From IMG/VR virus record IMGVR_UViG_3300029258_001468: a stretch of DNA of 47,628 nucleotides. One strand, written 5' to 3'. Made by a program: the position numbers and the translations under genes. The DNA comes from a virus. The notes under the pieces were generated by a model, which was not told where the DNA came from, did not search any database, and was given only the letters and a program-made list of their open reading frames with translations. Shown here piece after piece: positions 1 to 47,628 of the stretch; position 1 is the stretch's first letter, and each line of letters opens with the position of its first letter.

Positions 1-144
1 CGATGTCAAGTACCCGGAGTACAAGGCCACACGGCTCATCCCCGTCAGCGGTGATGCTGGTCCCGGAGCAAGGACCATCACCTACCGTCAGTTCGACTCT
101 GTCGGTGTTATGAAGATCATCGCCGACTACGCGACCGACCTTCC
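1..144. repeat. Terminal overlap: bases 1-144 are identical to 47485-47628 (circular closure or permutation of the contig)
   Basis: Direct string comparison of both window ends. The overlap lies inside the capsid ORF and keeps its reading frame. Confidence 0.95.
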
Positions 145-22653: not shown

Positions 22654-23179
22654 CGACCTGTATCGGTACGTCCGGGAGCACCTGCGCTCCGTTCCTCCGG
22701 TTTTCTACGACCGGGTGCGGACAGCGCTCCTGCTCAAAGGTGTCGACCTATTAGGGGAGGACCAAGACCTCATGTTCGTCGCCCTACGAAACAAGAAGAT
22801 CGACACGTTGCGCTCCTGCAAGCGCGACCGGGTGACAATGAACTCTGTCAAGACGTCGGACGTTACCGAAAGTGAGCTGCTCCCTACCAACGGGAAGACT
22901 GACATGCGTTCGTTCCTTGAGATTCTGTACATCACGTTCTTGCGTGTCAATCCACCACACCAGCGCTACCTCTCGCTCTACATTCGAGCGGTGGCGAACG
23001 GGAAGCAGCCGACGAATGAACACATCAGCTTCCTCGCCGGGTTTAACGGGAAACGAGGCTCGGTCATATGGAAGAAAATCAAGGAAACCGCTTTACAGGT
23101 GCAAAAAGAAGGAAGGGCCTATGAGCTGTACAGAGTGCGAGACCTATCAGACCTGCTGCGACGCGTACGCCTCCAGTAA
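22637..23179 (+). CDS. Hypothetical protein
   Basis: 180-aa ORF. Its 3' end overlaps the polymerase start by 59 nt. Confidence 0.55.
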   Translation: MTASTSDLYRYVREHLRSVPPVFYDRVRTALLLKGVDLLGEDQDLMFVALRNKKIDTLRSCKRDRVTMNSVKTSDVTESELLPTNGKTDMRSFLEILYITFLRVNPPHQRYLSLYIRAVANGKQPTNEHISFLAGFNGKRGSVIWKKIKETALQVQKEGRAYELYRVRDLSDLLRRVRLQ

Positions 23180-25535
23180 GCCTGTAGACGTCCTGTTCGT
23201 GCAGGACATCGTGAAGACGTACAACGGAGTCCGAGGCTACAAGACGGAGACGATGACCAAGCTGCGTCACTCGCTCCGGACGGTCTACAACTCCGGAATG
23301 AGCGTCGAGTATGTGAACCTTGTCAACTACATGCTGCCGGAGGGCAAAAAGCCGGTGAAAAAGGACATCACCGCGTGCGCCGGGTTCACTAAGCGGATGA
23401 TTGACAAGTGCAAACCACAGTATATCGTCGCTCTCGGTGCTGCCGTGTTCACCGCATTGACAGGCAAGAGTCAGTTCAAGAAGTGGGTCGGTCGGACCGT
23501 CGAGCACGAGGGGTACACGGTCATCCCGATGTTTCACCCGGATTACGCCACCAAGAATAAGGCACGGGAGCGAGAGTACGACGCGCAGTTGAAGAACATC
23601 ACGAACCAGCTGCTCGGTAAACACTCCGTCCTCGACGACAGCCGATACGAGCTTATCACCGAGGAGAAGGACATCTACAACAGGCTGCACGACCTGCGGA
23701 CGAGGGAGTGCGACACGATTCAAGCATTCGACTACGAAACGACCGGCCTCATCCCCGGAGAAGGACTGCCAGTGTGCCTGTCAATCTCGTTCGAGCACGG
23801 GCAAGCGTACTGCTTCTACTTCTTCGACCGGGACGAATACGAAGACACCGGTACGAACTCCGGATTGACAAAGACAATAAAGGAAGCGGTACGGGCGTGG
23901 ATGGAGTCGGACGTCCCGAAGGTCGCGCAGAATGCCAAGTTCGAAATCAAGTGGACGATGCGTCACTTCGGCTGCGAACCGAACAACATCGTCGGCGACA
24001 CGAAGCAGATACACCACCTCCTCCATGAGGCGAGCGATTCTTCCCTGTCAAACTTGGCCTACCAGTACACCGATATGGGAGGGTACGACACGCCGATGGT
24101 CGAGTTCCTCGCTGAAAACGGCGAAGGCTCTCACTGGAAGGCCGACCCGGAGACGATGCGTATTTACAGCTGCGGAGATTCCGACTGTACCCGGCGTATC
24201 TACGTCGAGCAGATAGAAACGCTCTTCAAGGACGCTGGCCTCAAGTGGCTGTACCGGAACGTAGTGCACCCGTCAATCTACACGCTGGCCCGTATCGAGG
24301 AACGCGGTATGCAAATCGACGTCAACCGCCTCTACGAGGTGCAGCAGGAATTGACAAAGAAGATAGCCGACACCAAGGCAGAGCTGGACGACATGCCGGA
24401 GGTGCGGAGGACGCTAGCCCGGTTCAAGAAGACGAACAAGAAGTTGACGGAGGTCAACTACGGCTCTTCTTCTCAGATGCAGCACCTCCTCTACCACGAG
24501 TGCAAGCTCCCGGTGCTCAAGACCAGCAAGAAGTCGAAGAAACCGTCGACCGGGGCGAAGGTCCTTGACAAGCTCAAATCGAAGCACCGCGTCGTGCAGC
24601 TCATCTGCAACATTCGTAGCTACACGTACCAACTCGGCGACATCGAGCAGATAGGCGACCGGTTGTCCGAAGAGGAAACCGTCTTTTCAGACTTGGTGCA
24701 GGACTACGTGGTGACCGGTCGTCTTTCCTCCCGGTCCCCGAACCTGCAGAACATCAAGGGAGGAACGGACGAAGAGCCGTCGCTCGTCAAGGAGTGTTTC
24801 GTGTCCCGGTTTGACAAAGGAGAACTCCTGCAGGTCGACTTCTCTCAGCTGGAGCTTAGGCTGGTCGGCAGCGAAGCCAACGAGCCGAAGTTCATCCGGG
24901 CCTTCAAGGACGGTACCGACATGCACACGTTGACCGCCAGCGAAATCAACAAGGTACCGCTTGACAAGGTAGAAAAGAAGCAAAGGACGTACGCGAAGCG
25001 CGTCAACTTCGGCTCCGTCTACGGCATCACCGAACACGGGCTGGCCGAGCAGCTCGATTGCAGCGAGAAGGAAGCGAAGAAGCAGCTCGACGCCTATTGG
25101 GAGTCATACACCGCTATCCGGGCGTGGACGAAACGGAACATCCGCGAAGCGCTGGAAACTTTACAGGTGAGAAACCGGCTCGGTCGCATACGGCATCTGC
25201 CGGACATCACCTCGAACCAGTGGTGGAAGCGCGAATCGGCAGAGCGCCAGTCCTCGAACTTCAAGATTCAGAGCCTCGGTGCGGACATCAACATGTGGAG
25301 CATGGCGAACATTGACCGGTACTTGACAAGGAAGAACTACGACAGCATCGTCATCGGACAGATTCACGACTCGGTACTGATAGACTGCCACCCGGACGAG
25401 AAGGACGAGGTCATTGCGCTTGTCAAGTGGGTCATGACCGAAAAGGCGATGGACCTGTTCACCTTCCTACGCATACCGCTCAAGGTGGACGTCGAAACCG
25501 GACCCCGGTGGTCCGAAATGAGGAACGTAGCGTGA
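23121..25535 (+). CDS. Family A DNA polymerase with 3'-5' exonuclease and N-terminal UDG-like (family-4-like, degenerate) domain
   Basis: Exo I FDYETTG, Exo III YSCGD. Pol motif A DFSQLELR, motif B RTYAKRVNFGSVYG, motif C QIHDS. The N-terminal Cys cluster and FHPDY resemble family-4 UDG. ATG 23121 follows GAAGGAAGGG. Confidence 0.9.
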   Translation: MSCTECETYQTCCDAYASSKPVDVLFVQDIVKTYNGVRGYKTETMTKLRHSLRTVYNSGMSVEYVNLVNYMLPEGKKPVKKDITACAGFTKRMIDKCKPQYIVALGAAVFTALTGKSQFKKWVGRTVEHEGYTVIPMFHPDYATKNKAREREYDAQLKNITNQLLGKHSVLDDSRYELITEEKDIYNRLHDLRTRECDTIQAFDYETTGLIPGEGLPVCLSISFEHGQAYCFYFFDRDEYEDTGTNSGLTKTIKEAVRAWMESDVPKVAQNAKFEIKWTMRHFGCEPNNIVGDTKQIHHLLHEASDSSLSNLAYQYTDMGGYDTPMVEFLAENGEGSHWKADPETMRIYSCGDSDCTRRIYVEQIETLFKDAGLKWLYRNVVHPSIYTLARIEERGMQIDVNRLYEVQQELTKKIADTKAELDDMPEVRRTLARFKKTNKKLTEVNYGSSSQMQHLLYHECKLPVLKTSKKSKKPSTGAKVLDKLKSKHRVVQLICNIRSYTYQLGDIEQIGDRLSEEETVFSDLVQDYVVTGRLSSRSPNLQNIKGGTDEEPSLVKECFVSRFDKGELLQVDFSQLELRLVGSEANEPKFIRAFKDGTDMHTLTASEINKVPLDKVEKKQRTYAKRVNFGSVYGITEHGLAEQLDCSEKEAKKQLDAYWESYTAIRAWTKRNIREALETLQVRNRLGRIRHLPDITSNQWWKRESAERQSSNFKIQSLGADINMWSMANIDRYLTRKNYDSIVIGQIHDSVLIDCHPDEKDEVIALVKWVMTEKAMDLFTFLRIPLKVDVETGPRWSEMRNVA

Positions 25536-25580
25536 AACCTAGCTCTTTGAAGGAGCGTTATCACCATAAAAGGAGGTGCT

Positions 25581-25847
25581 ATGGCAGAGGTAGCCACAGT
25601 CCACGTGTCAAAAGGCGTCACGGTGTCGGTCGGCAAGTTCGAGTCCGTCCGTATTGACGCCACCGTTGAAGTTCGGGCCGAAAAAGGCGAAGACCCGGAC
25701 GACCTTTTCGACATCGGCTTCGAGTCGGTGGACGAGCAGGTAAACAAGCAGCTCGCCGAGATTCAGGACATCGTCACCGAAGGGTCGGTGTTTAACATGG
25801 CCAGCGCCGGAGGTTCAAGGGCGCAGAAGAGTCGTAAACGCAAATAG
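25581..25847 (+). CDS. Hypothetical protein
   Basis: AAAGGAGG RBS, 88 aa. Confidence 0.7.
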   Translation: MAEVATVHVSKGVTVSVGKFESVRIDATVEVRAEKGEDPDDLFDIGFESVDEQVNKQLAEIQDIVTEGSVFNMASAGGSRAQKSRKRK

Positions 25848-25876
25848 CAGTTTCACTTTACAAAGGAGAAGGAGCT

Positions 25877-26899
25877 ATGGCTCTCAACAAAAGACGACTG
25901 GAGCGGTCGAAGAATCGCTCACGCGGTGGAGGAGGAGGAAACTTCCACCGGCTACGCGACGGACGCAACCTCGTCCGCATCTTTTCTTTCCCTCACGAGG
26001 TAGCGGAGGAAGACTTCACCAAGGGCATCTACAAGAAAGGCGAAGTCGAGGTCGGCGACACGTTTGACGAAGTAGAACGCGAGGTCGCCAGCCATTTCCT
26101 CGACGACGGTTCCCTCAACTGCATCGGTTCCGGATGTGAGCACTGCGCGGAAGCGAAGAAGCTCTCCGGTTCGAAGAGCAAGAGCGACCAAAAGCTCGGA
26201 CGGCAGCTGTCCGCACGTCGCCGGTTCTACGTCAACCTAGTTGACATCGAAGAATCCGACGCCGGGGTGCAACTCTCTGCTCTTCCTCAGTCGGTGTTCA
26301 ACGCGGTGTTGAACTACATCATGGACCCCGATTTCGGGGAAGAGATACTCGGCCCGGAGGGGCGCGACTTCATCATTGACAGGGACAGCAAGGAGTCGCC
26401 TGACAAGATGTACGCGGTCCGCTTGCGCGACGAAAAGAAGTGCGAGGAACTGAGTGCCGACCTGCAGGACGACGTCACCGACCTTTTCACCTGTAAAGCG
26501 CTCGAACCGGGATGGTCCAGCAACTCCGACCTGAACGAGGCCGAAGAGAAGGACGACGAAACCAAGAAGGAACAGACTCGTCGCTCCAGCCGGGCGCGTG
26601 ACAAGGACGACGACGAACCGAAGAAGTCGGGCAAGAGGTCGAGCAAGAAGAAGGACAACGACTTCGAAGACGACGACACCTCCGGCGACAAGGCTCCGTG
26701 GGACGAGGGGAAAGAGGACGCTCCTGCCTTCAAAGAGAAGGACAAGGTCACGTTCGAGGACGCCGGTGAGACATTGACAGGTAAGATCGTCGAGTTTGAC
26801 GACTCCGGCGATGTTGCTGCGGTCGAAGTCGGCAACGAAATCTACGACATACCAGTAGTCGAATTGACAGCTGCGAAAAAGAGCAGCAGACGCAGATAA
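25877..26899 (+). CDS. ssDNA-binding protein candidate (gp32-like Zn-containing core, acidic/Lys-rich linker, small C-terminal domain)
   Basis: Basic N-terminus, H-x8-C-x5-C-x2-C, then a long D/E/K-rich region. Sits in the replication module. Confidence 0.45.
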   Translation: MALNKRRLERSKNRSRGGGGGNFHRLRDGRNLVRIFSFPHEVAEEDFTKGIYKKGEVEVGDTFDEVEREVASHFLDDGSLNCIGSGCEHCAEAKKLSGSKSKSDQKLGRQLSARRRFYVNLVDIEESDAGVQLSALPQSVFNAVLNYIMDPDFGEEILGPEGRDFIIDRDSKESPDKMYAVRLRDEKKCEELSADLQDDVTDLFTCKALEPGWSSNSDLNEAEEKDDETKKEQTRRSSRARDKDDDEPKKSGKRSSKKKDNDFEDDDTSGDKAPWDEGKEDAPAFKEKDKVTFEDAGETLTGKIVEFDDSGDVAAVEVGNEIYDIPVVELTAAKKSSRRR

Positions 26900-27011: not shown

Positions 27012-28103
27012 ATGATAAAAGGAAAAGCGAACATCGTCCTTGACGGTCAGTGGGGTTCGACCGGGAAAGGTAAGCTCATCGGGTACTTAGCGCTAGCACA
27101 CGACGTGTCGCTGGCGACGTGCGACTTCATGAGCAACGCCGGACACACCTTCGTCGACGACGATGGAAAGAAGTATGTCAGCTGTCAAGTGCCTACCTCG
27201 TTCGTGAACACGGACTGCGAGCTGGCAATCAACGCCGGTGGAGCGGTCACGATAGATAGACTCCTCAAAGAGATAGAGGAGTTCGACGTCGCCGACCGCC
27301 TCACGATTCATCCGCACTGCGCCGTCATCACAGAGGAAGACCGGGACCACGAAGCGAAGGTGCTCGCCCGGATAAGCAGCACGTTGAAAGGCTGCGGAGG
27401 TTCTCTCTCCCGTAAAGTGATGCGAGTCGCAAAACTGGCGAAGGACGAGCCGAAGCTTAAACAGTGGATAGGCGACACCACCGCGTTGACTCAGAAGCAC
27501 CTGTCAATCGGTGGAACCGTGCTGGTCGAGGGAGCGCAGGGATTCGACCTCTCATTGAACCACGGGCACGAGTACCCGTTCGTCACGAGCAGGGATGTCA
27601 CGACGATGTCGATACTGAACAACGCGTGTATTCCTCCGCTGTGGCTCGGCGACGTGTACGGCTGTCTTCGCACGTACCCGATTCGAGTCGGGAACATGTT
27701 CGACGGAGAGGGCAACCAAATCGGCCATTCCGGTCCGTGGTACGACGACCACGAAGAGATCGATTGGGACAAGCTCAAGGCAACGTCCGGTTCCGACATC
27801 GACTTGACAGAGAGGACAACGGTCACGAACAAGGTCCGACGCCTCTTCACGTTCAGCCACTACCAAGTCCGCAAGTTCATAAGGGCCTGTGCACCGACCA
27901 AGCTGTTTGTGAACTTTGTCAATCACCTCTGCGCTGCCGACGTCGGAAAGACCGAGTTGGACGACCTGTCGGTGGAAACACGTATCTGGCTCAACGAGCT
28001 ACAGGAAACAGTCGGTGACGAGTGGATATCCGACGTCAAGTACAAACCCGAAATCAGCCACCTCGGAACCGGAGCGAAAAACGGCGACATGGTGGTGCTA
28101 TAA
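27012..28103 (+). CDS. purZ: PurZ-like adenylosuccinate-synthetase homologue (candidate N6-succino-2-amino-2'-deoxyadenylate synthase)
   Basis: PurA core motifs are present (GQWGSTGKGK, NAGHT, EGAQG, YPFVTS). It has only 363 aa, Ser-Thr replaces the PurA Asp-Glu pair, and the substrate loops are divergent. Phage context. Confidence 0.7.
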   Translation: MIKGKANIVLDGQWGSTGKGKLIGYLALAHDVSLATCDFMSNAGHTFVDDDGKKYVSCQVPTSFVNTDCELAINAGGAVTIDRLLKEIEEFDVADRLTIHPHCAVITEEDRDHEAKVLARISSTLKGCGGSLSRKVMRVAKLAKDEPKLKQWIGDTTALTQKHLSIGGTVLVEGAQGFDLSLNHGHEYPFVTSRDVTTMSILNNACIPPLWLGDVYGCLRTYPIRVGNMFDGEGNQIGHSGPWYDDHEEIDWDKLKATSGSDIDLTERTTVTNKVRRLFTFSHYQVRKFIRACAPTKLFVNFVNHLCAADVGKTELDDLSVETRIWLNELQETVGDEWISDVKYKPEISHLGTGAKNGDMVVL

Positions 28104-28112
28104 GGAGGCACC

Positions 28113-29255
28113 ATGCTTTACGGAGACAAAAAGAACGTGGTGTGGGTCATCGGTCGCCTTGCTGCCGGGAAAACGTCGCATATCCGTGGCATCATCGAAA
28201 CGGACCCGGACAAGCTCATGGCCGTTTTCCCCGGTCAAGCGTGCCGGGAGCACTTCGGTGCGCAGACCATGGCCGAATGTGAGAACCCGACCGCGCCCGA
28301 AATGACGGAGTCGTTCGTACGAAACCTCATCTGTGATGCAGTTGACAGGATAGAACCGGGCATGACGCTCTTCGTCGACGGTTTCCCTCGCACGCCGAAT
28401 CAGGTAGAGTGGCTGTACGACCAGTTCGTTCGGAACTCCGGGTTGGCGTGTATGTTCCTCGTTTACACCTGCGATGACGTAGTCCGCAAGGCGCGAGCGT
28501 TGAAGCGCGACGAGGGAACGAAGAACGAGTCGCTCATGAACGCTCGGCTCATCACCGACGACCGGAACCAGCTGCGCGTCCTCGAAGAGATTCTGATGCG
28601 GAACGCGTACGCAGTTGCCAACAAACGGCGGTCCGTACCGCTCACGCTCATTGACAACACCAAAGACATACCGCACATCGCCGGGATGCCTCCCTTCGTT
28701 CCTACTCAGTACGTGCCAATTGACGGGCGCATTGAACGAGCGATGGAGGACCTACGCGATGCGCCGGAGGTCGCCGGTATCTCGTTCGACGACCGGAACC
28801 TCGCGACGATGATGGCGTGCAACGCTACGCTGTCGGACCAAACGCTCGCTCCGCTGAACTTGACAATGGAGAAGCTGCGGTCCGAAGCGGTGCAGCACAA
28901 CGAAATGCCGTTGATGGCGACCCCGGTCGACTGGACCCGGCGCTTCGTGTCGCGTGCAATCGAGGAGCTGAACGAGCTACTGGAGCAGCTGCCGGAAACG
29001 TGGTGGTCGAAGGAGCTGGCCGACATCAGAAAGGCGCGTGTCGAGTTGATAGACGCGTGGCACTTCATGATGTCCGCGTCGCAGTCGCTCGGCATGGACG
29101 CGACGTTCTTCGCCCGGACGTACTACGCGAAGCTCAAGGTCAATCTCAAGCGTCAAGCGAACGGGTACGACAAACGTGTAAAGAAGAAAGGCGACGACAA
29201 CCACGTCGGCGTGGCTACTCGTCCCGGTAACGGGGAGGAGTCGACCGGCGAATGA
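28113..29255 (+). CDS. Fusion protein: adenylate-kinase-like NMP kinase (N-terminal) + all-alpha NTP pyrophosphohydrolase (MazG / dimeric-dUTPase / DUF550-like, C-terminal)
   Basis: P-loop GRLAAGKT and DGFPRT (adenylate kinase signature) within aa 1-185. AIEELNELLEQLPETWWSK ... VELIDAWHF (ExxE...ExxD metal motifs) within aa 270-320. Confidence 0.65.
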   Translation: MLYGDKKNVVWVIGRLAAGKTSHIRGIIETDPDKLMAVFPGQACREHFGAQTMAECENPTAPEMTESFVRNLICDAVDRIEPGMTLFVDGFPRTPNQVEWLYDQFVRNSGLACMFLVYTCDDVVRKARALKRDEGTKNESLMNARLITDDRNQLRVLEEILMRNAYAVANKRRSVPLTLIDNTKDIPHIAGMPPFVPTQYVPIDGRIERAMEDLRDAPEVAGISFDDRNLATMMACNATLSDQTLAPLNLTMEKLRSEAVQHNEMPLMATPVDWTRRFVSRAIEELNELLEQLPETWWSKELADIRKARVELIDAWHFMMSASQSLGMDATFFARTYYAKLKVNLKRQANGYDKRVKKKGDDNHVGVATRPGNGEESTGE

Positions 29256-30511
29256 GTGTCCTGTCCCCGGAGTTTCAGACGAACTTGACAAAGGCGATAC
29301 TGCAGGACCCGTCTTTTCTGTCAAGGTACCGGACCTACCTAGAACGCGGTATGTTCAAGGACGAAACCGAGTCCGACGTCGTGCGTCACGCATTGGAGTT
29401 CTACGACCAGTACAGTGCCACTCCGTCGCGTGACTCGTTCACGCTCTACTTGGAGAGGCAGAACTACTTGACAGAGGACATAGAGGAGTTGGTGCATCCG
29501 CTCTACGACGAGCCGGTGCTGAACATCGACTTCCTCGAAGACTCGTTGAAGGACTTCGTCAAGAAGACGCGAATCAAGGACGTGCTGTTGGAGAGTACGG
29601 TGTTGCTTGACAAGGGAGAATACGACCGCATATACGACCGCATCAAGAACACGGTGCTCTCCTTCGTGGACGGGGACGTCGGCGACCTGTTTTGGAAGGA
29701 CAAAAAGAAGGTGCTGCAGGAGCTTGACGCCGGAGAACAGTTCATTCCTACCGGCATCACCTCGCTCGACGAGAAGCTCGGTGGTGGTGCCGTGCGGAAG
29801 ACGTTGAACGTCATCGTCACTCCGCCTAACAAAGGAAAAAGCACGTCGCTGGTTAACGTCGGGAAGTACGCAGCGCTCGCCGGGTTCAACGTCGCGCACT
29901 ACACGTTCGAGCTTTCGGCGAACGTCATCAAGCGCCGGTACTTCATGGCGATGACCCGGATGAGCAAGAAGGAGCTAAAAAGGAAGAAGGCTACCGCGTA
30001 TGACAAGATACTCGACCTCGCCGACGGAATAGCGGAAGAGTCCATCATCGTCAAGCGGTACCCGGCGTACAGCTGCACGGTGCCGATGGTCCGGGAACAC
30101 ATCAACCTCGTGCGGAACAAGTACGGGTTCTTCCCGGACGTCCTCATCTTCGACTACGCGGACCTCATGCGCTCCACCAAGAGCTACGACCAGCGAAGAC
30201 ACGAGCTGTCCGAGGTCTACTACACGATGAGGGAGCTGGCCGACGAGTTCAACGCAGCAGCGTGGACCGCGTCGCAAACGAACCGGAGCGGAGCAAGCGA
30301 GGAGCTGGTCACGATGGAGGACCTCGCCGAGTGCTACGAAAAAGCAGCCTGTGCAGACGTTATGGTGTCTGTCAATCAAACTTTAGACGAAAAACGGTCT
30401 CGGCCACAGACGGCCCGGCTGTTCCTCGCTAAGAACCGGGACGACGTGTCCGAGGTGACGGTAGAGGTCGAGACCGATTGGGAGAGGGCATGGATAGGAA
30501 ACTTACTTTAG
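29252..30511 (+). CDS. DnaB-like replicative helicase (RecA-fold)
   Basis: GITSLDEKLGGG, Walker A PPNKGKST, Walker B LIFDYADL, and SQTNR. Confidence 0.8.
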   Translation: MSVLSPEFQTNLTKAILQDPSFLSRYRTYLERGMFKDETESDVVRHALEFYDQYSATPSRDSFTLYLERQNYLTEDIEELVHPLYDEPVLNIDFLEDSLKDFVKKTRIKDVLLESTVLLDKGEYDRIYDRIKNTVLSFVDGDVGDLFWKDKKKVLQELDAGEQFIPTGITSLDEKLGGGAVRKTLNVIVTPPNKGKSTSLVNVGKYAALAGFNVAHYTFELSANVIKRRYFMAMTRMSKKELKRKKATAYDKILDLADGIAEESIIVKRYPAYSCTVPMVREHINLVRNKYGFFPDVLIFDYADLMRSTKSYDQRRHELSEVYYTMRELADEFNAAAWTASQTNRSGASEELVTMEDLAECYEKAACADVMVSVNQTLDEKRSRPQTARLFLAKNRDDVSEVTVEVETDWERAWIGNLL

Positions 30512-33310: not shown

Positions 33311-34378
33311 TTAGTTGTTGCTCGAAGCGTACACCATGCTGAGCATGTCGTTGATTTCGACTCGTTCTTTCATGTCAATGACCGTCGTGGTCTGCTTGGT
33401 CGGATTCGCTGCCGTCGCTTCGAGGATGGTCTCAAGCGCGACCTGCTTGTCCTTCGCTCCGCTTCCCATGAGGGCTGATTTGACGCGTGTCCGTTCCAGC
33501 TCTTCCTCGCTCCCGGACTGGTACACCTTCCGGTCGTGGTCGATGTAGTCGGTGAACGCGTTCAGCAGGGAGTACGCGGTGCCTCTCTGAGTCGGAAACG
33601 CGTTGCCGTCGTTGTCCTCGAAGTTCTCCAGCACGTTGGCTATCTTGTCCTGCACGATGGCGTTGCCGTTGTGGTTGGGGAACAGACGAGTCATGACCTC
33701 GAACGTCGACTCGTGGGTCATCTTCCGGGTGGCCAGCACGTTGAGCTTGTCCTCCAGCGTCTTGATGTTCGAGCGCACGTCGCTGAGTGCAGCAACGCTG
33801 TCGTTCATCCGCTCTTCCGCGTTCCGGGTGTGCTTGACACGCACCAATTTGCCGAGGTTCTTCGACTCGGCCATATACGCTGGCAGCTGGTTGTCGCAAA
33901 TACCGCGCACCGTGGAGATTGACACCTGAGCACAGCCCTTCTTTCCGTGGAAGGTCGTGAAGAAGAGGTAGGACTGGCTGATGTCGTCCGTGCCTTTGAT
34001 TCGAAGGTCCATCGGGACGCGAGCAAGGCACCATATCTGACGACCGTCGTCAATCGACCCGGCGAACGTGTAGTGTGCTCCGTCGACCGACTCCAGCAGG
34101 GAGTCTACGAAAGAGAACGCGAACTTGTTCTGTATCGGGGTGTAGTCTTTGCCGACCGCGCCGAGGAAAGCGTCGGTGTCCTGACGGAAGATGCCGAATG
34201 TCGGAAGTTCGAGACCTGCAGCTGTGTAGAGTGGACGCTTGTCAACCTGCCAGTCGAGTCCGGCCTTAACAATGGTCTGCTGCCATGTCTGTGCGTCGTC
34301 AACGACGGTGCCGAGCTTGTGGTAGCCTTTTCCAACTGTCATGATTTCTTCTTTTCCGTTTGTGAGTGTTGCGGACAT
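33311..34378 (-). CDS. DUF932-like (phage/plasmid-related) protein
   Basis: 356 aa from the ATG after AAAAGGAGGA. Its length and motifs (GKDYTPIQN, W.LA.., FTTFHGK...) recall DUF932/TIGR03299. Confidence 0.6.
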   Translation of the reverse strand: MSATLTNGKEEIMTVGKGYHKLGTVVDDAQTWQQTIVKAGLDWQVDKRPLYTAAGLELPTFGIFRQDTDAFLGAVGKDYTPIQNKFAFSFVDSLLESVDGAHYTFAGSIDDGRQIWCLARVPMDLRIKGTDDISQSYLFFTTFHGKKGCAQVSISTVRGICDNQLPAYMAESKNLGKLVRVKHTRNAEERMNDSVAALSDVRSNIKTLEDKLNVLATRKMTHESTFEVMTRLFPNHNGNAIVQDKIANVLENFEDNDGNAFPTQRGTAYSLLNAFTDYIDHDRKVYQSGSEEELERTRVKSALMGSGAKDKQVALETILEATAANPTKQTTTVIDMKERVEINDMLSMVYASSNN

Positions 34379-34437
34379 GAGTCCTCCTTTTACAAGGTGA
34401 TTGGTTTCGAGACCGAGCTGTGCCCGGTTCTCATTTG

Positions 34438-34698
34438 TCAATTGATGTGTAGCTGTAGCTCCCCATCGGGGTATTCGACGACCTGTCCATCTGTCAGCCG
34501 TCGTGCTGCTTCCTGCGAGAACAGCTTGTGGATCGCTTTACGCTTGCACTGCGCCGACTTGATGATGCTCTCCTCGACGCTGGTACCGAGAGCACGCCGT
34601 TTTTTCCTTTTAGTACGACGCGCCTTGTCAGCTACCAAGCCATTCCGCTCGTTTGCTGCCCGGTTCAACTTCACGTTGTCTCCTTTCTCCTCTGTCAA
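34438..34698 (-). CDS. Hypothetical basic protein
   Basis: 86 aa with an Arg/Lys-rich centre. Confidence 0.5.
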   Translation of the reverse strand: MTEEKGDNVKLNRAANERNGLVADKARRTKRKKRRALGTSVEESIIKSAQCKRKAIHKLFSQEAARRLTDGQVVEYPDGELQLHIN

Positions 34699-42802: not shown

Positions 42803-45106
42803 GTGCCGGTCATGCGGTGTCAGCGCGGAGGGAAAAAGGGCTGGAAGGCCGGGCCTACCGGGTTTTGCTATATAGGGACCTCCGCACGTGGCAAGGCCGA
42901 AAAGCAGCTGGCTGCGATTAAGGCGTCGCAGAAGAAACGTGGCAAGATTGACAGTGAAGAAAAGAAAAAGACGCAGACGCGTCTTGACATAGACGAAGCA
43001 ACTGCTCTTTCAAAGTTAGGGTTAAGCCGGAACAGAACATCAAAGCGGAAGGTCCGCTTCAAGCGACCTCCGAAGTGGCTGCTACCGTTGGGTATTGAGA
43101 GAGAATACCAGCGCAGATTGACAGCCGTCGTCCGGGAGTGGAAAGCGGTATGTGACCGAACTCTCATGCGTCAACTTCCTGCCCTCGTTGAGGAAGGAAG
43201 GATGGAGTTCAACCTCGACGCGTTTACCGACTCGTTGGACATGCTGGTCGACAACCTCAAGCTCGAAGTCAACAAGGACAAGGAGAAATACGGGGTGGTC
43301 GCACTTGACATCGGAGAGAAGACGAAACGATGGAACGACAAGGAGTGGCGCAAGACGATGAACCAAGTCGTCGGCGTTGCTCCCTTCTCCGCTCCGGGAA
43401 CCGAGGCACTCGTCACGGACTTTACAAGTGAGAACGTTGGTCTGATAACGAAGCTCGGAGATTCCACGATGGAGGACATACGTGGCATCGTTCACCGGGG
43501 AGTCAAGCAGGGCAAACGGCACGAAGAGATAGCGAAGGAGATAACGGGCCTAGTTCCACCGGGACGCTTCAAGAAAGCGGAAACGAGAGCGAAGCTCATC
43601 GCTCGCGACCAAGTCTCCAAGCTCAACGGGCAATTGACACAGGCGAATCAGACGTCGGTCGGAGTTACCGAGTACATATGGCGCTCCTCCGACGACAGCC
43701 GGGTCCGGGCAACGCACGAGGCGAACGACGACAAGAAGTTCAAGTGGTCGAATCCTCCTGCAGCAACCGGGCATCCGGGACAGGACATCAACTGCCGGTG
43801 TTGGGCTGAGCCGGTGTTCGATGACTTAGCGGAAGCCATCAACGCCGATCCACCAGCACCTAGTGCGCCTGTCAAGGTACCAACGCCGAAGAAGACGAAG
43901 CCCGACGTAAAGACGAAAAAGCCCTTAAAGACTCAGGTGGACAAGAAGTTATCGTCCGAGTCGGTAAAGGCCACTGAGCGGTACGTATCGGACTATGAAG
44001 AGTTGAATCAACAACTCCGACTTGGGCAGGTATCCGCCAAAAACAAAAAGTTCGCTGCGTCGCTGGAGAAGGCAATTGACGAGTCAGAAGGTCTAGCGGA
44101 AGATACGGTTTTTTGGCGTGGCATGGAGTTCGAGTCAAAAAACAATCCGTTTCTCGGTAACTTTAAGAAGGGATATACGTTCAGCGATGAGGGCTTCCAG
44201 TCGATGTCGCTCGACAAAAAGGTAGCTGAGAATTTTTCGCGTGGGGGTGGGTTCGGTGACGTTGAGGTGTTAATGAAAATCAACGTACCAAAAGGGACTA
44301 AGCTAGCCAAGATACCGAGTGGGCTGGACGAGTTCATTCTACCGCCATCAAAAGGACCACAGGTGTATAAAGTCACCAAGGTCACGAAGCCGATTTCGGG
44401 TAAGCTTCTAGTGGAGGTTGACTACAGGGATATCTCGAAGGTCGCCACCAAGGGACCAAACAAAGGAGTAAAGCCGGTAGTCGCTAAACCGAAGCCACCG
44501 AAACCGGACGCATTCGACACGGCGAAGTACAACGAAATGGTGTACGATGACGAACAAAAGGAGTTTCTATTTGGAGCGAAGGAAACGCTCAAGAAGAACT
44601 CCGGGATGGACAGGCCCAAGGCGCTGCAGGACTACATCGGAAACGGCTTTACAGACGTCAATGATGAGCTTCGTGGTATGCCTGTCAATTTCGAGTACTT
44701 CAACGACTCGTTGGAGATACAGGAGGCTATTGACGATCTCGTTGACCTGTACAACCACGCTCCGAAAACACCGGAGAACCTCGTCCTTTGGAGAGGCACC
44801 GGGCTGGACCACGTGAAGAATCCTCACAAGCTCGTGGGGAAGACCATCACGGAAGACGCGTTCCTGTCAACGACGCTCAACGAACAAAAGACGAACTTCT
44901 TCATCAGTTGGGCTAAGGACCGGGACATCGAGAAGGTGGGACGAATGAAGGTATACGTTGACAAAGGAGAGGCGTTTCTCCCCGGAACAATATACGAACG
45001 GGAGGTGATATTCGAACCCGGCAGGACCCTAAGGATACTCAAGGTTGACGAGGTGAAGCCGAACGTGTTCAACATCGAAGCGCAGCTCGTAAAGGACGTA
45101 CTCTGA
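42803..45106 (+). CDS. Minor head protein (Mu F / SPP1 gp7-like) fused to two tandem ADP-ribosyltransferase (C3/VIP2-type) domains
   Basis: MuF core ...YIWRSSDDSRVRATHEANDDKKF...INCRCW. ART1 has FWRG / QSMS / LDEF. ART2 has LWRG / LSTT / YEREV (R-STT-ExE). Confidence 0.8.
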   Translation: MPVMRCQRGGKKGWKAGPTGFCYIGTSARGKAEKQLAAIKASQKKRGKIDSEEKKKTQTRLDIDEATALSKLGLSRNRTSKRKVRFKRPPKWLLPLGIEREYQRRLTAVVREWKAVCDRTLMRQLPALVEEGRMEFNLDAFTDSLDMLVDNLKLEVNKDKEKYGVVALDIGEKTKRWNDKEWRKTMNQVVGVAPFSAPGTEALVTDFTSENVGLITKLGDSTMEDIRGIVHRGVKQGKRHEEIAKEITGLVPPGRFKKAETRAKLIARDQVSKLNGQLTQANQTSVGVTEYIWRSSDDSRVRATHEANDDKKFKWSNPPAATGHPGQDINCRCWAEPVFDDLAEAINADPPAPSAPVKVPTPKKTKPDVKTKKPLKTQVDKKLSSESVKATERYVSDYEELNQQLRLGQVSAKNKKFAASLEKAIDESEGLAEDTVFWRGMEFESKNNPFLGNFKKGYTFSDEGFQSMSLDKKVAENFSRGGGFGDVEVLMKINVPKGTKLAKIPSGLDEFILPPSKGPQVYKVTKVTKPISGKLLVEVDYRDISKVATKGPNKGVKPVVAKPKPPKPDAFDTAKYNEMVYDDEQKEFLFGAKETLKKNSGMDRPKALQDYIGNGFTDVNDELRGMPVNFEYFNDSLEIQEAIDDLVDLYNHAPKTPENLVLWRGTGLDHVKNPHKLVGKTITEDAFLSTTLNEQKTNFFISWAKDRDIEKVGRMKVYVDKGEAFLPGTIYEREVIFEPGRTLRILKVDEVKPNVFNIEAQLVKDVL

Positions 45107-47395: not shown

Positions 47396-47628
47396 GTGAT
47401 TCAGAAAATACAGAGCGTCAACCTCGATGCGAATGAGTCTGTCTTCTTTGCTCGCGAACTTGAACACATCAAGGCTCAGTCCTACGATGTCAAGTACCCG
47501 GAGTACAAGGCCACACGGCTCATCCCCGTCAGCGGTGATGCTGGTCCCGGAGCAAGGACCATCACCTACCGTCAGTTCGACTCTGTCGGTGTTATGAAGA
47601 TCATCGCCGACTACGCGACCGACCTTCC
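47396..47628 (+). CDS. Major capsid protein, 5' portion (continues at base 1 via the terminal overlap)
   Basis: GTG after GAAGGAG. In frame with ORF ..856 when 47485 is mapped to base 1. Confidence 0.85.
   Translation, partial: MIQKIQSVNLDANESVFFARELEHIKAQSYDVKYPEYKATRLIPVSGDAGPGARTITYRQFDSVGVMKIIADYATDL
47485..47628. repeat. Terminal overlap copy (identical to 1-144)
   Basis: Exact 144-nt identity with the window start. Confidence 0.95.

What the first reader, a model, noticed from the sequence alone, without database searches (positions are those of the whole stretch)
28113..29255. Unusual fusion of an adenylate-kinase-like NMP kinase to an all-alpha NTP pyrophosphohydrolase, directly downstream of the PurZ-like gene
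The N-terminal half carries a P-loop (GRLAAGKT) and the adenylate-kinase signature DGFPRT. The C-terminal half carries the ExxE...ExxD metal motifs of the MazG / dimeric-dUTPase / DUF550 superfamily (AIEELNELLEQLPETWWSK ... VELIDAWHF).

In described Z-genome phages, a stand-alone MazZ/DUF550 enzyme supplies dGMP (and removes dATP), and host kinases are thought to phosphorylate dZMP. A single polypeptide combining the NTP-PPase with a dedicated NMP kinase would channel dGTP to dGMP (to PurZ) and dZMP to dZDP. I do not recognise this architecture from the described systems.
Basis: partly seen in the sequence, partly recalled or inferred. Interest (0 to 1): 0.8.

Follow-up and report, generated by a model that had tools for sequence, protein, structure and literature searches.

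The report
Kinase–pyrophosphatase fusion beside phage PurZ
An uncultured phage that probably replaces adenine with 2-aminoadenine in its DNA encodes, next to the key PurZ gene, one protein joining a nucleotide kinase to a nucleotide pyrophosphatase, which suggests the phage supplies a phosphorylation step so far attributed to the host.

Summary
Window 28113-29255 (+) is one uninterrupted 380-aa gene. It starts 9 nt after the PurZ-like gene and overlaps the DnaB start.

Residues 1-184 are a short-LID NMP kinase; the best structural relatives are uridylate kinase and AK1. Residues 226-358 are an all-alpha pyrophosphatase of the dimeric-dUTPase family (Pfam dUTPase_2, above cutoff). A disordered linker joins the two halves.

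The fusion recurs in about 40 metagenomic protein clusters. It is absent from 50,697 GenBank phage records and from GTDB species genomes.

In 15 of 15 distinct loci with readable upstream sequence, PurZ lies just upstream of the kinase, usually adjacent and at most two small ORFs away. The kinase is the constant part. Its partner is a dUTPase_2 domain, a phrog_3301 "pyrophosphatase", a trimeric Dut-like domain (fused or as a separate gene), or dUTPase_2 plus an NDT-like domain.

All 42 kinase-fused dUTPase_2 domains lack the uracil-reading Gln; 26 of 30 free-standing relatives keep it.

The complete 47.5-kb genome shows no DatZ, MazZ, DUF550, DUF5664, Dut or NDT.

Best reading: a Z-pathway enzyme, a dATP/dGTP pyrophosphatase plus a dZMP kinase. 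The substrates are inferred, not shown. No searched paper describes this architecture.

The parts
27012..28103 (+). PurZ-like succino-aminodeoxyadenylate synthase gene, directly upstream of the fusion
   Evidence: Pfam Adenylsucc_synt E = 5.8e-31. PHROG 1211 E = 5.6e-62. NCBIfam PurZ 224.9 bits, below the 300-bit cutoff. GQWGSTGKGK with S16 equivalent to phiVC8 S14; T269, F302, W252, Y244 and P223 also match phiVC8 PurZ; W14 and H305 differ. About 35% identical to phiVC8 PurZ.
28102..28108 (+). Ribosome-binding site AAGGAGG, 4 nt before the ATG
   Evidence: Read directly from the sequence.
28113..29255 (+). Whole fusion gene (380 aa): NMP kinase, linker, all-alpha dNTP pyrophosphatase
   Evidence: Single ORF. 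Identical protein P0001 and full-length homologs P0002-P0011. About 40 two-domain cluster representatives.
28113..28664 (+). N-terminal short-LID NMP-kinase domain (residues 1-184)
   Evidence: Family profile against PDB: 1UKY 5e-11, AK1 3.5e-8, UMP/CMP kinase 7.5e-8. Foldseek TM 0.60-0.66 to AK1 and short Adk. pLDDT about 80-92. No PHROG match.
28152..28175 (+). Walker A / P-loop GRLAAGKT (residues 14-21)
   Evidence: G14, G19 and K20 invariant, T21 near-invariant, in A1/A3.
28233..28247 (+). GQACR motif (residues 41-45); R45 aligns with the NMP-phosphate Arg of AK1 (R44)
   Evidence: R45 invariant, G41 and C44 near-invariant. Alignment to AK1 and URA6.
28377..28403 (+). DGFPRTPNQ (residues 89-97): NMP-binding Arg R93 and base-contacting Gln Q97
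   Evidence: D89, P92, R93 and Q97 invariant. Aligns with DGFPRKMDQ of 1UKY and DGYPREVQQ of AK1.
28494..28547 (+). Short LID region carrying invariant R128, R132 and R145
   Evidence: Invariant columns. They align with AK1 R128, R132 and R149. The AK1 R138 equivalent is absent because the LID is 4 residues shorter (alignment).
28665..28787 (+). Flexible interdomain linker (residues 185-225)
   Evidence: pLDDT below 50 for residues 185-225. Length-variable and poorly conserved in A1.
28788..29186 (+). C-terminal all-alpha dNTP pyrophosphatase domain of the dimeric-dUTPase (dUTPase_2) family (residues 226-358)
   Evidence: Pfam PF08761 27.4 bits, above the 22.9 cutoff. PHROG 18650 2.6e-12. Family profile against PDB dimeric dUTPases: 2CJE 8e-7, 1W2Y 1.8e-5. 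C-domain model pLDDT 82, five helices. Foldseek only weak, with DR2231 on top.
28821..28835 (+). Altered base-recognition motif 1: N237-A-T-L-S241, in place of the Gln14-x3-Asn18 uracil readers of C. jejuni dUTPase
   Evidence: Bridging alignment through stand-alone relatives. 0 of 42 fused domains have Gln; 26 of 30 stand-alone relatives do. The role of Gln14, Asn18 and Asn22 is from PMC2954211.
28965..28976 (+). Metal-binding E285-x-x-E288
   Evidence: Invariant. Aligns with ExxE of the Leishmania, T. brucei and Campylobacter dUTPases.
29043..29066 (+). Metal-binding E311-x-x-D314 followed by W316-H317-F318
   Evidence: Invariant. Aligns with ELVDIFHF and EIVDIWHF of solved dimeric dUTPases.
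29130..29168 (+). Motif 5: K340...N344..R347...G351-Y352 (phosphate-binding helix)
   Evidence: Invariant. Aligns with AK..LN..RQ..GYK of solved dimeric dUTPases.
29252..30511 (+). DnaB-like replicative helicase; its start overlaps the fusion's stop (ATGA)
   Evidence: Pfam DnaB_C 2.3e-20, PHROG 19 2.7e-66. Overlap read from the sequence. Conserved downstream neighbour in all related loci.
22872..26899 (+). Upstream part of the same replication module: UDG-like/exo/PolA polymerase, a small ORF, and a gp32-like SSB
   Evidence: Pfam and PHROG. Same order in every related locus.

Best explanation
The gene encodes a bifunctional nucleotide-pool enzyme belonging to a 2-aminoadenine (Z) DNA biosynthesis module.

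Shown here:
- One polypeptide joins a catalytically intact-looking short-LID NMP kinase to a dimeric-dUTPase-type all-alpha dNTP pyrophosphatase through a flexible linker.
- It is encoded in one operon-like run with a PurZ-type synthase and the replication genes.
- The PurZ / kinase / dNTP-pyrophosphatase trio is conserved across a whole uncultured phage lineage, whether fused or not.

Inferred:
- The pyrophosphatase half has lost the uracil-reading residues. It plays the role that DutZ, MazZ/DUF550 or DUF5664 play in described Z-phages. It would hydrolyse dATP to dAMP, which keeps A out of the DNA, and dGTP to dGMP, which feeds PurZ. It may still hydrolyse dUTP.
- PurZ plus host PurB turn dGMP into dZMP.
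- The kinase half then phosphorylates dZMP to dZDP, and host Ndk completes dZTP.

The logic is the same as in phage T4, where gp56 dCTPase, gp42 and the gp1 dNMP kinase act in sequence. Here the first and last enzymes are on one chain. Because dimeric dUTPases act as dimers, the fusion would also bring two kinase domains together. Any actual substrate channelling is speculation.
For: (1) Domain identities are supported by Pfam, PHROG, PDB profiles and Foldseek. All catalytic residues are invariant across the family: K20, R45, D89, R93, R128, R132, R145; E285, E288, E311, D314; K340, N344, R347. Both halves are under purifying selection.

(2) PurZ lies just upstream of the kinase in 15 of 15 distinct loci with readable upstream sequence. 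It is usually adjacent; one small ORF intervenes in L001 and two in L016. PurZ identity to the window ranges from 38% to 89%.

(3) The kinase is the constant partner, and its pyrophosphatase partner is swapped among unrelated folds:
- dUTPase_2 (the window and about 40 clusters)
- the phrog_3301 'pyrophosphatase' (P0048, E = 6e-30)
- trimeric Dut PF00692 fused to the kinase (L022; kinase homology by hhalign 98.5%)
- trimeric Dut as a separate adjacent gene (L038)
- a split kinase/PPase pair (L018)

(4) L022's Dut domain is closest to the Dut-like enzymes of cultured PurZ-carrying actinophages such as Goodman and Archimedes. In that group DutZ was shown to hydrolyse dATP, dGTP and dUTP (PMC12884076).

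(5) Two members add an NDT-like third domain (P0034 above the Pfam cutoff). This parallels the published DmtZ-DutZ fusion.

(6) The uracil readers Gln14 and Asn18 (PMC2954211) are replaced in all 42 fused domains but kept in 26 of 30 free-standing relatives.

(7) The window is a closed, complete genome (144-nt terminal overlap). PurZ and this gene are its only recognisable nucleotide-metabolism genes, so the fusion is the only candidate for dGMP supply and dATP removal.

(8) The PurZ-like protein carries the decisive Ser and most other PurZ signature residues.
Against: - No substrate has been measured, and neither base specificity can be read from sequence.
- The kinase's best solved relative is a uridylate kinase. 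Q97 also occurs in yeast URA6. The LID lacks the equivalent of AK1 R138 / E. coli R156. The window sequence alone is below Pfam's ADK cutoff.
- All PurZ-linked loci belong to one syntenic phage lineage, so the 15 of 15 count is not 15 independent events.
- One stand-alone kinase relative (L020) follows PolA and SSB with no PurZ before it.
- Foldseek on the C-domain alone finds no significant PDB match.
- The PurZ-like protein scores below NCBIfam's PurZ cutoff and is only about 35% identical to characterised PurZ. The polymerase shows no DpoZ affinity. That this phage really has Z-DNA is therefore itself an inference.
- Without a DatZ- or DmtZ-type enzyme, host Adk could re-phosphorylate the dAMP made from dATP.
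Confidence: 0.5

Rival explanations
1. Thymidylate-branch enzyme. The C-half is an ordinary dUTPase (dUTP to dUMP, feeding thymidylate synthase and keeping U out of DNA). The N-half is a dTMP or pyrimidine (UMP/CMP-type) kinase. The position next to PurZ would simply be inherited gene order in one phage lineage.
For: - The C-half belongs to Pfam dUTPase_2, and its closest cultured-phage hits are annotated dUTPases and T4-like gp56.
- The best solved relative of the kinase is yeast uridylate kinase.
- Microbacterium phage Eden, which has no PurZ but has ThyA and DHFR, encodes a dimeric dUTPase immediately followed by a thymidylate kinase.
- ThyA lies directly downstream of the fusion in L001, and ThyX is in the module in L002.
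- Published DutZ enzymes still hydrolyse dUTP.
Against: - Every fused dUTPase_2 domain has lost the uracil-reading Gln (0 of 42, against 26 of 30 free-standing relatives). Eden's enzyme keeps it.
- The complete window genome has no thymidylate synthase.
- Eden's Tmk is unrelated to this kinase.
- Two members add an NDT-like domain. In Z-phages the NDT-family enzyme DmtZ acts on dAMP.
- A Z-phage needs a dGMP source and a dATP sink, and this genome has no other candidate.
Confidence: 0.2
2. The pyrophosphatase half is a Z-pathway dATP/dGTPase as in the main reading. The kinase half, however, is a broad-specificity (d)NMP kinase that boosts all dNTP pools during replication (like T4 gp1, T5 dNMP kinase or T7 gp1.7) and is not dedicated to dZMP.
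For: - Many phages carry general dNMP kinases (established knowledge).
- Stand-alone relatives of this kinase exist, and at least one (L020) is not preceded by PurZ.
- The NMP-site residues (R45, R93, Q97) are generic to AMP and UMP kinases.
Against: - A kinase that also phosphorylates dAMP or dGMP would undo the work of the pyrophosphatase fused to it, so some discrimination is expected.
- The kinase sits just downstream of PurZ, with overlapping stop and start codons in L003/L004, L015 and L038.
- Where enough context is available, even a 'stand-alone' kinase (P0066) turns out to lie between PurZ and a Dut-like gene.
Confidence: 0.2
3. The kinase-like half is not an NMP kinase in vivo. It could be a nucleotide-binding regulatory domain controlling the pyrophosphatase, or an enzyme acting on a different phosphoacceptor.
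For: - It is below Pfam's ADK cutoff, and homologs hit only the generic AAA_17, AAA_18 and AAA_33 models.
- The LID is shortened and lacks one catalytic Arg of true adenylate kinases.
- There is no PHROG match.
Against: - The full set of NMP-kinase residues is invariant (P-loop Lys, both NMP-site Arg, DGxPR-x3-Q, three LID Arg), and the fold matches AK1 and UMP/CMP kinase end to end.
- dN/dS is 0.22.
- It also occurs as a free-standing gene, which is unusual for a purely regulatory appendage.
Confidence: 0.05
4. Artefact: two separate genes joined by a sequencing or assembly frameshift, or a chimeric contig.
For: One locus (L018) has the kinase and the pyrophosphatase as two overlapping ORFs in different frames.
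Against: - The same continuous reading frame occurs in dozens of independent assemblies from different samples and pipelines (JGI, ENA, Logan, NCBI), at 31-77% identity.
- The linker is in frame and under purifying selection.
- The identical protein is on record from 4 contigs.
Confidence: 0.01

Closest known systems
DutZ, and the DmtZ-DutZ fusion, of PurZ0 actinophages (Gordonia phage Ghobes, Arthrobacter phage Wayne; PMC12884076)
   Same: - A 'dUTPase-family' enzyme encoded in a PurZ cluster. DutZ was shown to hydrolyse dATP and dGTP as well as dUTP, and in Wayne it is fused to a second nucleotide-pool enzyme.
- Relatives of the window protein carry a Dut-like domain in place of dUTPase_2 (L022, L038).
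- Two relatives add an NDT-like domain.
   Different: - DutZ is an all-beta trimeric Dut (PF00692). The window's domain is the unrelated all-alpha dimeric type (PF08761).
- The fusion partner here is an NMP kinase, which that paper does not mention: the word 'kinase' does not occur in its text.
- The NDT-like domain of P0034 shows no detectable similarity to any NDT/DmtZ gene in GenBank phages.
MazZ / MazZ-2 / DUF550 / DUF5664 of PurZ phages (S-2L, phiVC8 group, Acinetobacter phage SH-Ab 15497)
   Same: They belong to the same all-alpha NTP-pyrophosphatase superfamily logic (ExxE...ExxD metal site). They are encoded beside PurZ, supply dGMP and/or remove dATP, and are sometimes fused to one another (DUF550-DUF5664).
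   Different: The window protein matches none of these families in Pfam, NCBIfam or PHROGs; it matches dUTPase_2 instead. None of them is reported fused to a kinase. The window genome also lacks DatZ.
Dimeric dUTPases (C. jejuni 1W2Y; Leishmania 2CJE/2YAY; T. brucei 4DK4) and the small DR2231-type all-alpha dUTPase
   Same: The metal-binding tetrad, the WW and (W)HF aromatic motifs and the K..N..RQ..GY motif 5 are conserved. The Pfam family is above cutoff. DR2231 is the top, though weak, structural match.
   Different: The uracil-recognition residues Gln14 and Asn18 are replaced (N237 and S241). The domain is a minimal module of about 130 aa without the mobile domain of the 230-290-aa enzymes. 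It is fused to a kinase.
Phage T4 gp56 dCTPase/dUTPase + gp42 dCMP hydroxymethylase + gp1 dNMP kinase (own knowledge of the T4 pathway), and the dUMP kinase induced by PBS1/2 (PMC12697855)
   Same: The pathway logic is the same. A pyrophosphatase degrades the canonical dNTP to the monophosphate, a modifying enzyme converts it, and a phage kinase re-phosphorylates the modified dNMP. gp56-like dCTPase is a detectable relative of the C-half (Acinetobacter phage 133 gp56, E = 3e-4).
   Different: - In T4 the three are separate proteins.
- gp1 is a different kinase family.
- The modified base in T4 is a pyrimidine.
- Here the first and last enzymes are fused, and the middle enzyme is PurZ plus host PurB.
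Short-LID adenylate and UMP/CMP kinases (AK1 1Z83; yeast URA6 1UKY; Dictyostelium 1QF9)
   Same: The fold is the same (TM 0.60-0.66). The P-loop, the NMP-site Arg pair, DGFPR-x3-Q and LID Arg 128/132/145(149) are present.
   Different: The P-loop is GxxGxGKT(T/S) and not GxPGxGKGT. The NMP-binding subdomain is about 7 residues shorter and the LID 4 residues shorter, without the AK1 R138 equivalent. A near-invariant Cys44 replaces the Leu that packs on the base. The window sequence is below Pfam's ADK cutoff.
Microbacterium phage Eden gp28 (dimeric dUTPase) + gp29 (thymidylate kinase)
   Same: It is a cultured-phage example of a dimeric dUTPase_2-type gene immediately adjacent to an NMP-kinase gene. 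gp28 is among the best cultured-phage hits to the C-half.
   Different: Eden has no PurZ; it has ThyA and DHFR. The gene order is reversed, and the genes are separate. gp28 keeps the uracil-reading Gln. gp29 is a Tmk unrelated to this kinase.

Membership tests
Adenylate / UMP-CMP kinase family (short-LID NMP kinases) | P-loop GxxGxGK(T/S) with the catalytic Lys | tested here: met
   GRLAAGKT at residues 14-21. G14, G19 and K20 are invariant. The AK-typical GKGT is replaced by GKT(T/S).
Adenylate / UMP-CMP kinase family (short-LID NMP kinases) | NMP-site arginines (AK1 R44 and R97) and the DGFPR-x3-Q motif | tested here: met
   R45, D89-G-F-P-R93 and Q97 are invariant and aligned to 1UKY and AK1.
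Adenylate / UMP-CMP kinase family (short-LID NMP kinases) | Complete set of LID arginines (AK1 R128, R132, R138, R149) | tested here: not met
   R128, R132 and R145 are present and invariant. The LID is 4 residues shorter, and no conserved basic residue stands in for AK1 R138 / E. coli R156.
Adenylate / UMP-CMP kinase family (short-LID NMP kinases) | Pfam ADK (PF00406) score above the curated cutoff | tested here: not met
   14.8 bits against a cutoff of 26.8 for the window protein. Homologs pass only the generic AAA_17/18/33 models. The family profile nevertheless hits 1UKY at 5e-11.
Adenylate / UMP-CMP kinase family (short-LID NMP kinases) | Fold: CORE, NMP-binding and LID architecture | tested here: met
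   Foldseek gives TM 0.60-0.66 (normalised to the target) to AK1, short E. coli Adk and UMP/CMP kinases, at probability 1.00.
Adenylate / UMP-CMP kinase family (short-LID NMP kinases) | ATP:NMP phosphotransferase activity and its base specificity | not testable with these tools
   This needs an enzyme assay.
Dimeric dUTPase family (Pfam dUTPase_2, PF08761) | Pfam score above the curated cutoff | tested here: met
   27.4 bits against a cutoff of 22.9. PHROG 18650 'dUTPase' at 2.6e-12.
Dimeric dUTPase family (Pfam dUTPase_2, PF08761) | Metal-binding ExxE...ExxD tetrad and phosphate-binding motif 5 (K..N..R..GY) | tested here: met
   E285, E288, E311, D314, K340, N344, R347, G351 and Y352 are invariant and aligned to the solved enzymes.
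Dimeric dUTPase family (Pfam dUTPase_2, PF08761) | Uracil-recognition residues (C. jejuni Gln14, Asn18, Asn22) | tested here: not met
   The window has N237 and S241 at the Gln14 and Asn18 positions. 0 of 42 fused domains have Gln, against 26 of 30 free-standing relatives. It should therefore not be filed as a bona fide dUTPase.
Dimeric dUTPase family (Pfam dUTPase_2, PF08761) | All-alpha four-helix-bundle fold matching solved members | tested here: inconclusive
   The C-domain model is all-helical with pLDDT 82. Foldseek finds no hit at E of 0.001 or better; the top hits are DR2231 at TM 0.45-0.52 and probability up to 0.75.
Dimeric dUTPase family (Pfam dUTPase_2, PF08761) | Homodimeric active enzyme | not testable with these tools
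   Only monomer prediction was available.
Phage 2-aminoadenine (Z) DNA biosynthesis cluster | PurZ with Ser in place of the catalytic Asp13 of PurA (phiVC8 S14) | tested here: met
   S16 in GQWGSTGKGK is invariant in all fusion-linked homologs. T269, F302, W252, Y244 and P223 also match; W14 and H305 differ. The NCBIfam PurZ score is below its cutoff (224.9 against 300).
Phage 2-aminoadenine (Z) DNA biosynthesis cluster | A known dATP-removing or dGMP-supplying enzyme (DatZ, MazZ, DUF550, DUF5664, DutZ, DmtZ) | tested here: not met
   None of these families was detected in any ORF of the complete genome. The fusion's C-half is the only candidate substitute.
Phage 2-aminoadenine (Z) DNA biosynthesis cluster | DpoZ-type polymerase | tested here: inconclusive
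   The PolA with exo and UDG-like domains is at most 30% identical to any cultured-phage PolA and shows no specific affinity to PurZ-phage polymerases.
Phage 2-aminoadenine (Z) DNA biosynthesis cluster | Z in place of A in virion DNA | not testable with these tools
   This needs LC-MS or Z-aware sequencing of the phage DNA.
T4 gp56-type dCTPase/dUTPase | Detectable homology over the catalytic core | tested here: inconclusive
   Acinetobacter phage 133 gp56 matches 49 residues at E = 3e-4. This shows the same superfamily, but no closer relation.

The most novel reading that the evidence does not exclude
The N-terminal half is a phage-encoded kinase selective for dZMP. It would be the first viral enzyme for the dZMP-to-dZDP step that the searched Z-genome papers assign to host enzymes. 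The C-terminal half would be a further, independently recruited pyrophosphatase fold turned into a dATP/dGTP pyrophosphatase. Together with PurZ they would form a minimal two-gene Z-DNA module that works without DatZ. The kinase would be the universal partner of PurZ across an entire uncultured myovirus lineage.
Probability: 0.4. Interest if true: 0.8.

Novelty: new variant of a known kind. Interest (0 to 1): 0.68.

Why it matters
Z-DNA phages are the best-understood case of a virus rewriting the genetic alphabet, and the pathway is being ported into bacteria for synthetic biology. The Z-genome papers I could search say the phage stops at dSMP and leaves the dZMP and later phosphorylation steps to host enzymes.

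A kinase that travels with PurZ across a whole phage lineage, fused or adjacent to whichever dNTP pyrophosphatase that lineage uses, suggests some phages control this step as well. If so, it identifies a concrete, easily testable enzyme.

It would also add another unrelated pyrophosphatase fold to the published picture of functional convergence among Z-phage pool-sanitising enzymes. It would provide a compact PurZ-plus-one-gene module to try for in vivo Z-DNA production.

If the kinase turns out to be a plain pyrimidine or broad dNMP kinase, the finding reduces to an unusual domain fusion in a new PurZ-phage lineage.

Tried and rejected
- **DNA-level search in GenBank phages:** no match to the PurZ + fusion region.
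- **Protein search in GenBank phages:** only the last ~80 residues match, so no cultured phage has the fusion.
- **GTDB species genomes:** no relative, so it is not a prophage or cellular gene in that set.
- **IMG/VR scans with the family alignment and with four individual stand-alone kinases:** only already-known or no loci. An alignment of the stand-alone kinases was too diverse to make search patterns.
- **BFVD fold search:** no viral protein with the same two-domain architecture.
- **C-domain-only structure and PDB fold search:** no significant match, only weak DR2231 hits. The family assignment therefore rests on sequence profiles and motifs.
- **First guess on the uracil reader:** I first thought invariant M233 replaced the uracil-reading Gln. 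The bridging alignment through stand-alone relatives showed the Gln position is N237 and that M233 is a hydrophobic core residue.
- **P0048's C-domain:** I suspected a MazG/DCTPP1 type. The PDB match is not significant (E = 0.34) and Pfam gives nothing. Only PHROG 3301 'pyrophosphatase' is solid.
- **NDT-like third domain as a DmtZ ortholog:** rejected. It has no similarity to NDT/DmtZ genes in GenBank phages or to solved NDTs, only Pfam-level membership.
- **Polymerase as independent evidence for Z-DNA:** uninformative.
- **Closest cultured PurZ relative (Bacillus phage vB_BpsS-140):** no kinase or PPase is annotated next to purA.
- **Supplementary tables of the two key papers:** not held, or without relevant terms.
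- **Frameshift or assembly artefact:** considered and rejected.


Full report
**1. The observation**

Window 28113-29255 (+) is a single 380-aa ORF with no internal stop.
- An AAGGAGG at 28102-28108 precedes the ATG.
- The upstream gene stops at 28103.
- The ORF's TGA overlaps the ATG of the next gene as ATGA at 29252-29255.

The window's first and last 144 nt are identical, so it is a closed, complete phage genome of about 47.5 kb. It is myovirus-like, with sheath, baseplate, tape-measure, capsid, terminase and portal genes.

**2. The two halves**

*C-terminal half*
- As a single sequence it passes Pfam dUTPase_2 (27.4 bits against 22.9) and PHROG 'dUTPase' (2.6e-12).
- A 13-member profile of this half hits the dimeric dUTPases of Leishmania, T. 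brucei and Campylobacter (8e-7 to 1.8e-5). The match includes the C-terminal K..N..RQ..GYK motif.

*N-terminal half*
- As a single sequence it is below Pfam's ADK cutoff (14.8 bits against 26.8).
- A 12-member profile hits yeast uridylate kinase 1UKY (5e-11), AK1 (3.5e-8) and UMP/CMP kinases over the whole domain.

*Structure*
- An AF2 model built on the family alignment has two confident domains (pLDDT about 80-92) joined by a disordered linker, residues 185-225.
- The N-domain superposes on AK1, short Adk and UMP/CMP kinases at TM 0.60-0.66.
- A C-domain-only model is a confident five-helix domain. It finds only weak PDB matches, led by the small all-alpha dUTPase DR2231. Fold-level support for the C-half is therefore inconclusive.

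*Conserved residues across the family*
- Kinase: G14, G19, K20, R45, D89, P92, R93, Q97, R128, R132, R145.
- Pyrophosphatase: E285, E288, W297, W298, E311, D314, W316, H317, F318, K340, N344, R347, G351, Y352.

*Differences from true adenylate kinases* (alignment)
- The P-loop lacks the GKGT signature.
- The NMP-binding subdomain and the LID are shorter.
- There is no equivalent of AK1 R138.

**3. The fusion is real and recurrent, but known only from uncultured material**
- Ten further full-length homologs (35-77% identity) come from JGI, ENA and Logan assemblies.
- A profile census of 1.84 billion cluster representatives gives 46 hits at E of 1e-30 or better. About 40 of these are two-domain proteins of 300-375 aa.
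- Against the closest relative, dN/dS is 0.22 for the kinase, 0.22 for the linker and 0.12 for the PPase.
- Nothing comparable exists in 50,697 GenBank phage records, in BFVD or in GTDB species genomes. IMG/VR holds only two loci.

**4. Genomic context**

In every related locus with readable upstream sequence, a PurZ-type gene lies just upstream of the kinase and DnaB lies downstream. One small ORF intervenes in L001 and two in L016. The module has a conserved order: UDG-exo-PolA, SSB, PurZ, kinase/PPase, DnaB, primase.
- The 15 distinct loci are the window, L001, L002, L003, L005, L007, L010, L011, L013, L015, L016, L022, L035, L037 and L038.
- PurZ identity to the window ranges from 38% to 89%.
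- These loci belong to one broad phage lineage, so they are not independent events.
- One stand-alone kinase relative (L020) follows PolA and SSB without PurZ, but its contig ends 165 nt later.

**5. The kinase is the constant element, and the pyrophosphatase partner is interchangeable**

In the same PurZ-to-DnaB slot the kinase is found in six arrangements:
- (a) fused to dUTPase_2, as in the window;
- (b) fused to dUTPase_2 plus an NDT-like third domain (P0023 in L015; P0034, Nuc_deoxyri_tr2 31.7 bits against 30);
- (c) fused to a phrog_3301 'pyrophosphatase' domain (P0048; E = 6e-30);
- (d) fused to a classical trimeric dUTPase domain (L022; PF00692 at 87 bits; kinase homology by hhalign 98.5%);
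- (e) as a free-standing gene between PurZ and a separate trimeric Dut-like gene (L038);
- (f) as a kinase ORF overlapping a separate dUTPase_2 ORF (L018).

Among 1,054 phage records with a Dut homolog, L022's Dut domain is closest to the Dut-like genes of PurZ-carrying actinophages. That is the group in which DutZ was shown to hydrolyse dATP, dGTP and dUTP (PMC12884076).

This fused/unfused, partner-swapping pattern is the strongest evidence that PurZ, the kinase and a dNTP pyrophosphatase work together.

**6. The C-half is not an ordinary dUTPase**

In C. jejuni dUTPase the uracil is read by Gln14, Asn18 and Asn22 (PMC2954211).
- Free-standing relatives of the C-half carry [ML]F-x-x-Q-x-x-L-N-D.
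- The fused domains carry M[MF]-x-x-[H/N]-x-x-[LF]-[S/N/...]-D.
- At the Gln position, 42 fused domains have His 26, Asn 13, Ile 2 and Val 1, and never Gln.
- Thirty free-standing relatives have Gln 26 and His 4. One of the four His cases sits next to a kinase gene.
- Fisher's test gives p of about 1e-15, not corrected for phylogeny.
- The window has N237 and S241.
- Microbacterium phage Eden has no PurZ but has ThyA, DHFR and Tmk. Its dimeric dUTPase keeps the Gln, and its adjacent Tmk is unrelated to this kinase.

**7. The neighbour is PurZ-like, and nothing else in the genome can do the accessory jobs**
- The upstream protein has GQWGSTGKGK. S16 corresponds to phiVC8 S14, the residue whose S14D mutation abolishes selectivity (preprint 10.1101/2025.10.22.683976, section 8).
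- It also shares T262, F295, W252, Y244 and P233 with phiVC8 PurZ. It differs at F12 (Trp here) and Y298 (His here).
- It is a deep branch: about 35% identical to phiVC8 and Acinetobacter-phage PurZ, at best 39% to any cultured phage, and below NCBIfam's PurZ cutoff.
- Pfam and PHROG scans of all ORFs found no HD/DatZ, MazG, DUF550, DUF5664, Dut, NDT or thymidylate synthase.
- The polymerase is too divergent to say whether it is DpoZ-like.

**8. Mechanism proposed**

Shown: one polypeptide carries an intact-looking NMP kinase and an all-alpha dNTP pyrophosphatase with altered base-reading residues. It is co-encoded with PurZ and co-conserved with it.

Inferred:
- The pyrophosphatase hydrolyses dGTP to dGMP (substrate for PurZ) and dATP to dAMP (exclusion of A). 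By analogy with DutZ it may still hydrolyse dUTP.
- PurZ and host PurB make dZMP.
- The kinase makes dZDP, and host Ndk makes dZTP.

A kinase fused to a pyrophosphatase must discriminate against that pyrophosphatase's products, or the pair would cycle futilely. This argues for a kinase that prefers dZMP over dAMP and dGMP.

The scheme mirrors T4 gp56, gp42 and gp1 (own knowledge), and the induced dUMP kinase of PBS1/2 (PMC12697855).

Open problem: without DatZ or DmtZ, host Adk could recycle the dAMP. The NDT-bearing members would solve this only for themselves.

**9. Comparison with the literature**

The described Z-cluster enzymes are PurZ/PurZ0, DatZ, MazZ/MazZ-2, DUF550, DUF5664, DutZ, DmtZ and DpoZ.
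- The NAR 2026 survey does not contain the word 'kinase'. [quoted passage not shown] - The metaGPA preprint assigns the step to host GMP kinase.
- Searches combining PurZ, dZMP, dZTP or 2-aminoadenine with kinase terms found nothing describing a phage kinase in this pathway.
- The library covers open-access papers and bioRxiv only, so a description elsewhere cannot be excluded.

**10. Verdict**

I found no description of it. It is linked to PurZ in every readable locus.

The functional reading as a Z-pathway pyrophosphatase plus dZMP kinase is the best-supported explanation, at about 0.5. It rests on comparative inference.

The main rivals are a thymidylate-branch dUTPase + kinase (0.2) and a Z-pathway pyrophosphatase with a broad dNMP kinase (0.2).

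I rate it a new variant of a known kind, with interest 0.68.

Noticed in passing
window 22872-25535 (+): The DNA polymerase is a three-part protein: a family-4-UDG-like domain, a 3'-5' exonuclease and PolA. The same architecture occurs throughout the related lineage, yet the protein is at most 30% identical to any cultured-phage PolA. The listed GTG start at 22872 is probably too far upstream, because homologs align from about residue 85 (ATG, 'MSCTECETYQ').
   Followed up: partly
window 1-144 and 47485-47628: There is an exact 144-nt terminal overlap. The window is therefore a circularly closed, complete genome, or a terminally redundant one.
   Followed up: yes
window 42803-45106 (+): A MuF-like head-morphogenesis protein is fused to an ADP-ribosyltransferase exoenzyme domain (Pfam Phage_Mu_F 3.4e-22 and ADPrib_exo_Tox 9.9e-20). 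It may be an ejected toxin or effector.
   Followed up: no
L037 14796-16951: Three DNA methyltransferase genes sit in a row (MT-A70, a D12-class N6-adenine MTase, and an N6_N4 MTase). By its PurZ cluster this phage should have little or no adenine in its DNA. What they methylate is unclear.
   Followed up: no
L022 8994-11177: A ribonucleotide reductase with a TSCPD domain lies directly downstream of the kinase-Dut fusion. This phage therefore groups PurZ, kinase, Dut-like and RNR genes together.
   Followed up: no
L001 11023-11877; L002 14897-15583: ThyA lies directly downstream of the fusion in L001, and ThyX is in the same module in L002. The window genome has no thymidylate synthase at all.
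   Followed up: partly
P0049 (339 aa; contig of 1,978 bp): This protein has the same kinase fused to a C-terminal region of about 170 aa that matches no Pfam family. It may be yet another partner domain.
   Followed up: partly
L014 212-1615: A cellular-looking contig (thyA, rlmN, a HAD hydrolase) carries a free-standing 163-aa dUTPase_2 gene divergently adjacent to thyA. It has the canonical MQKELND uracil-reading motif. This is probably what the ancestor of the C-half looked like.
   Followed up: partly
window 33311-34441 (-): A DUF932 protein (Pfam 1.2e-38) is encoded on the opposite strand just after the replication module. A DUF932 gene is also present in related locus L002.
   Followed up: no
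window, structural region between 912 and 19262 (exact ORF not identified): One ORF in the tail/baseplate region matches Lipase_3 (Pfam 8.9e-20) and PHROG 'esterase/lipase' (4.9e-18). This suggests a virion-associated lipase or esterase.
   Followed up: no
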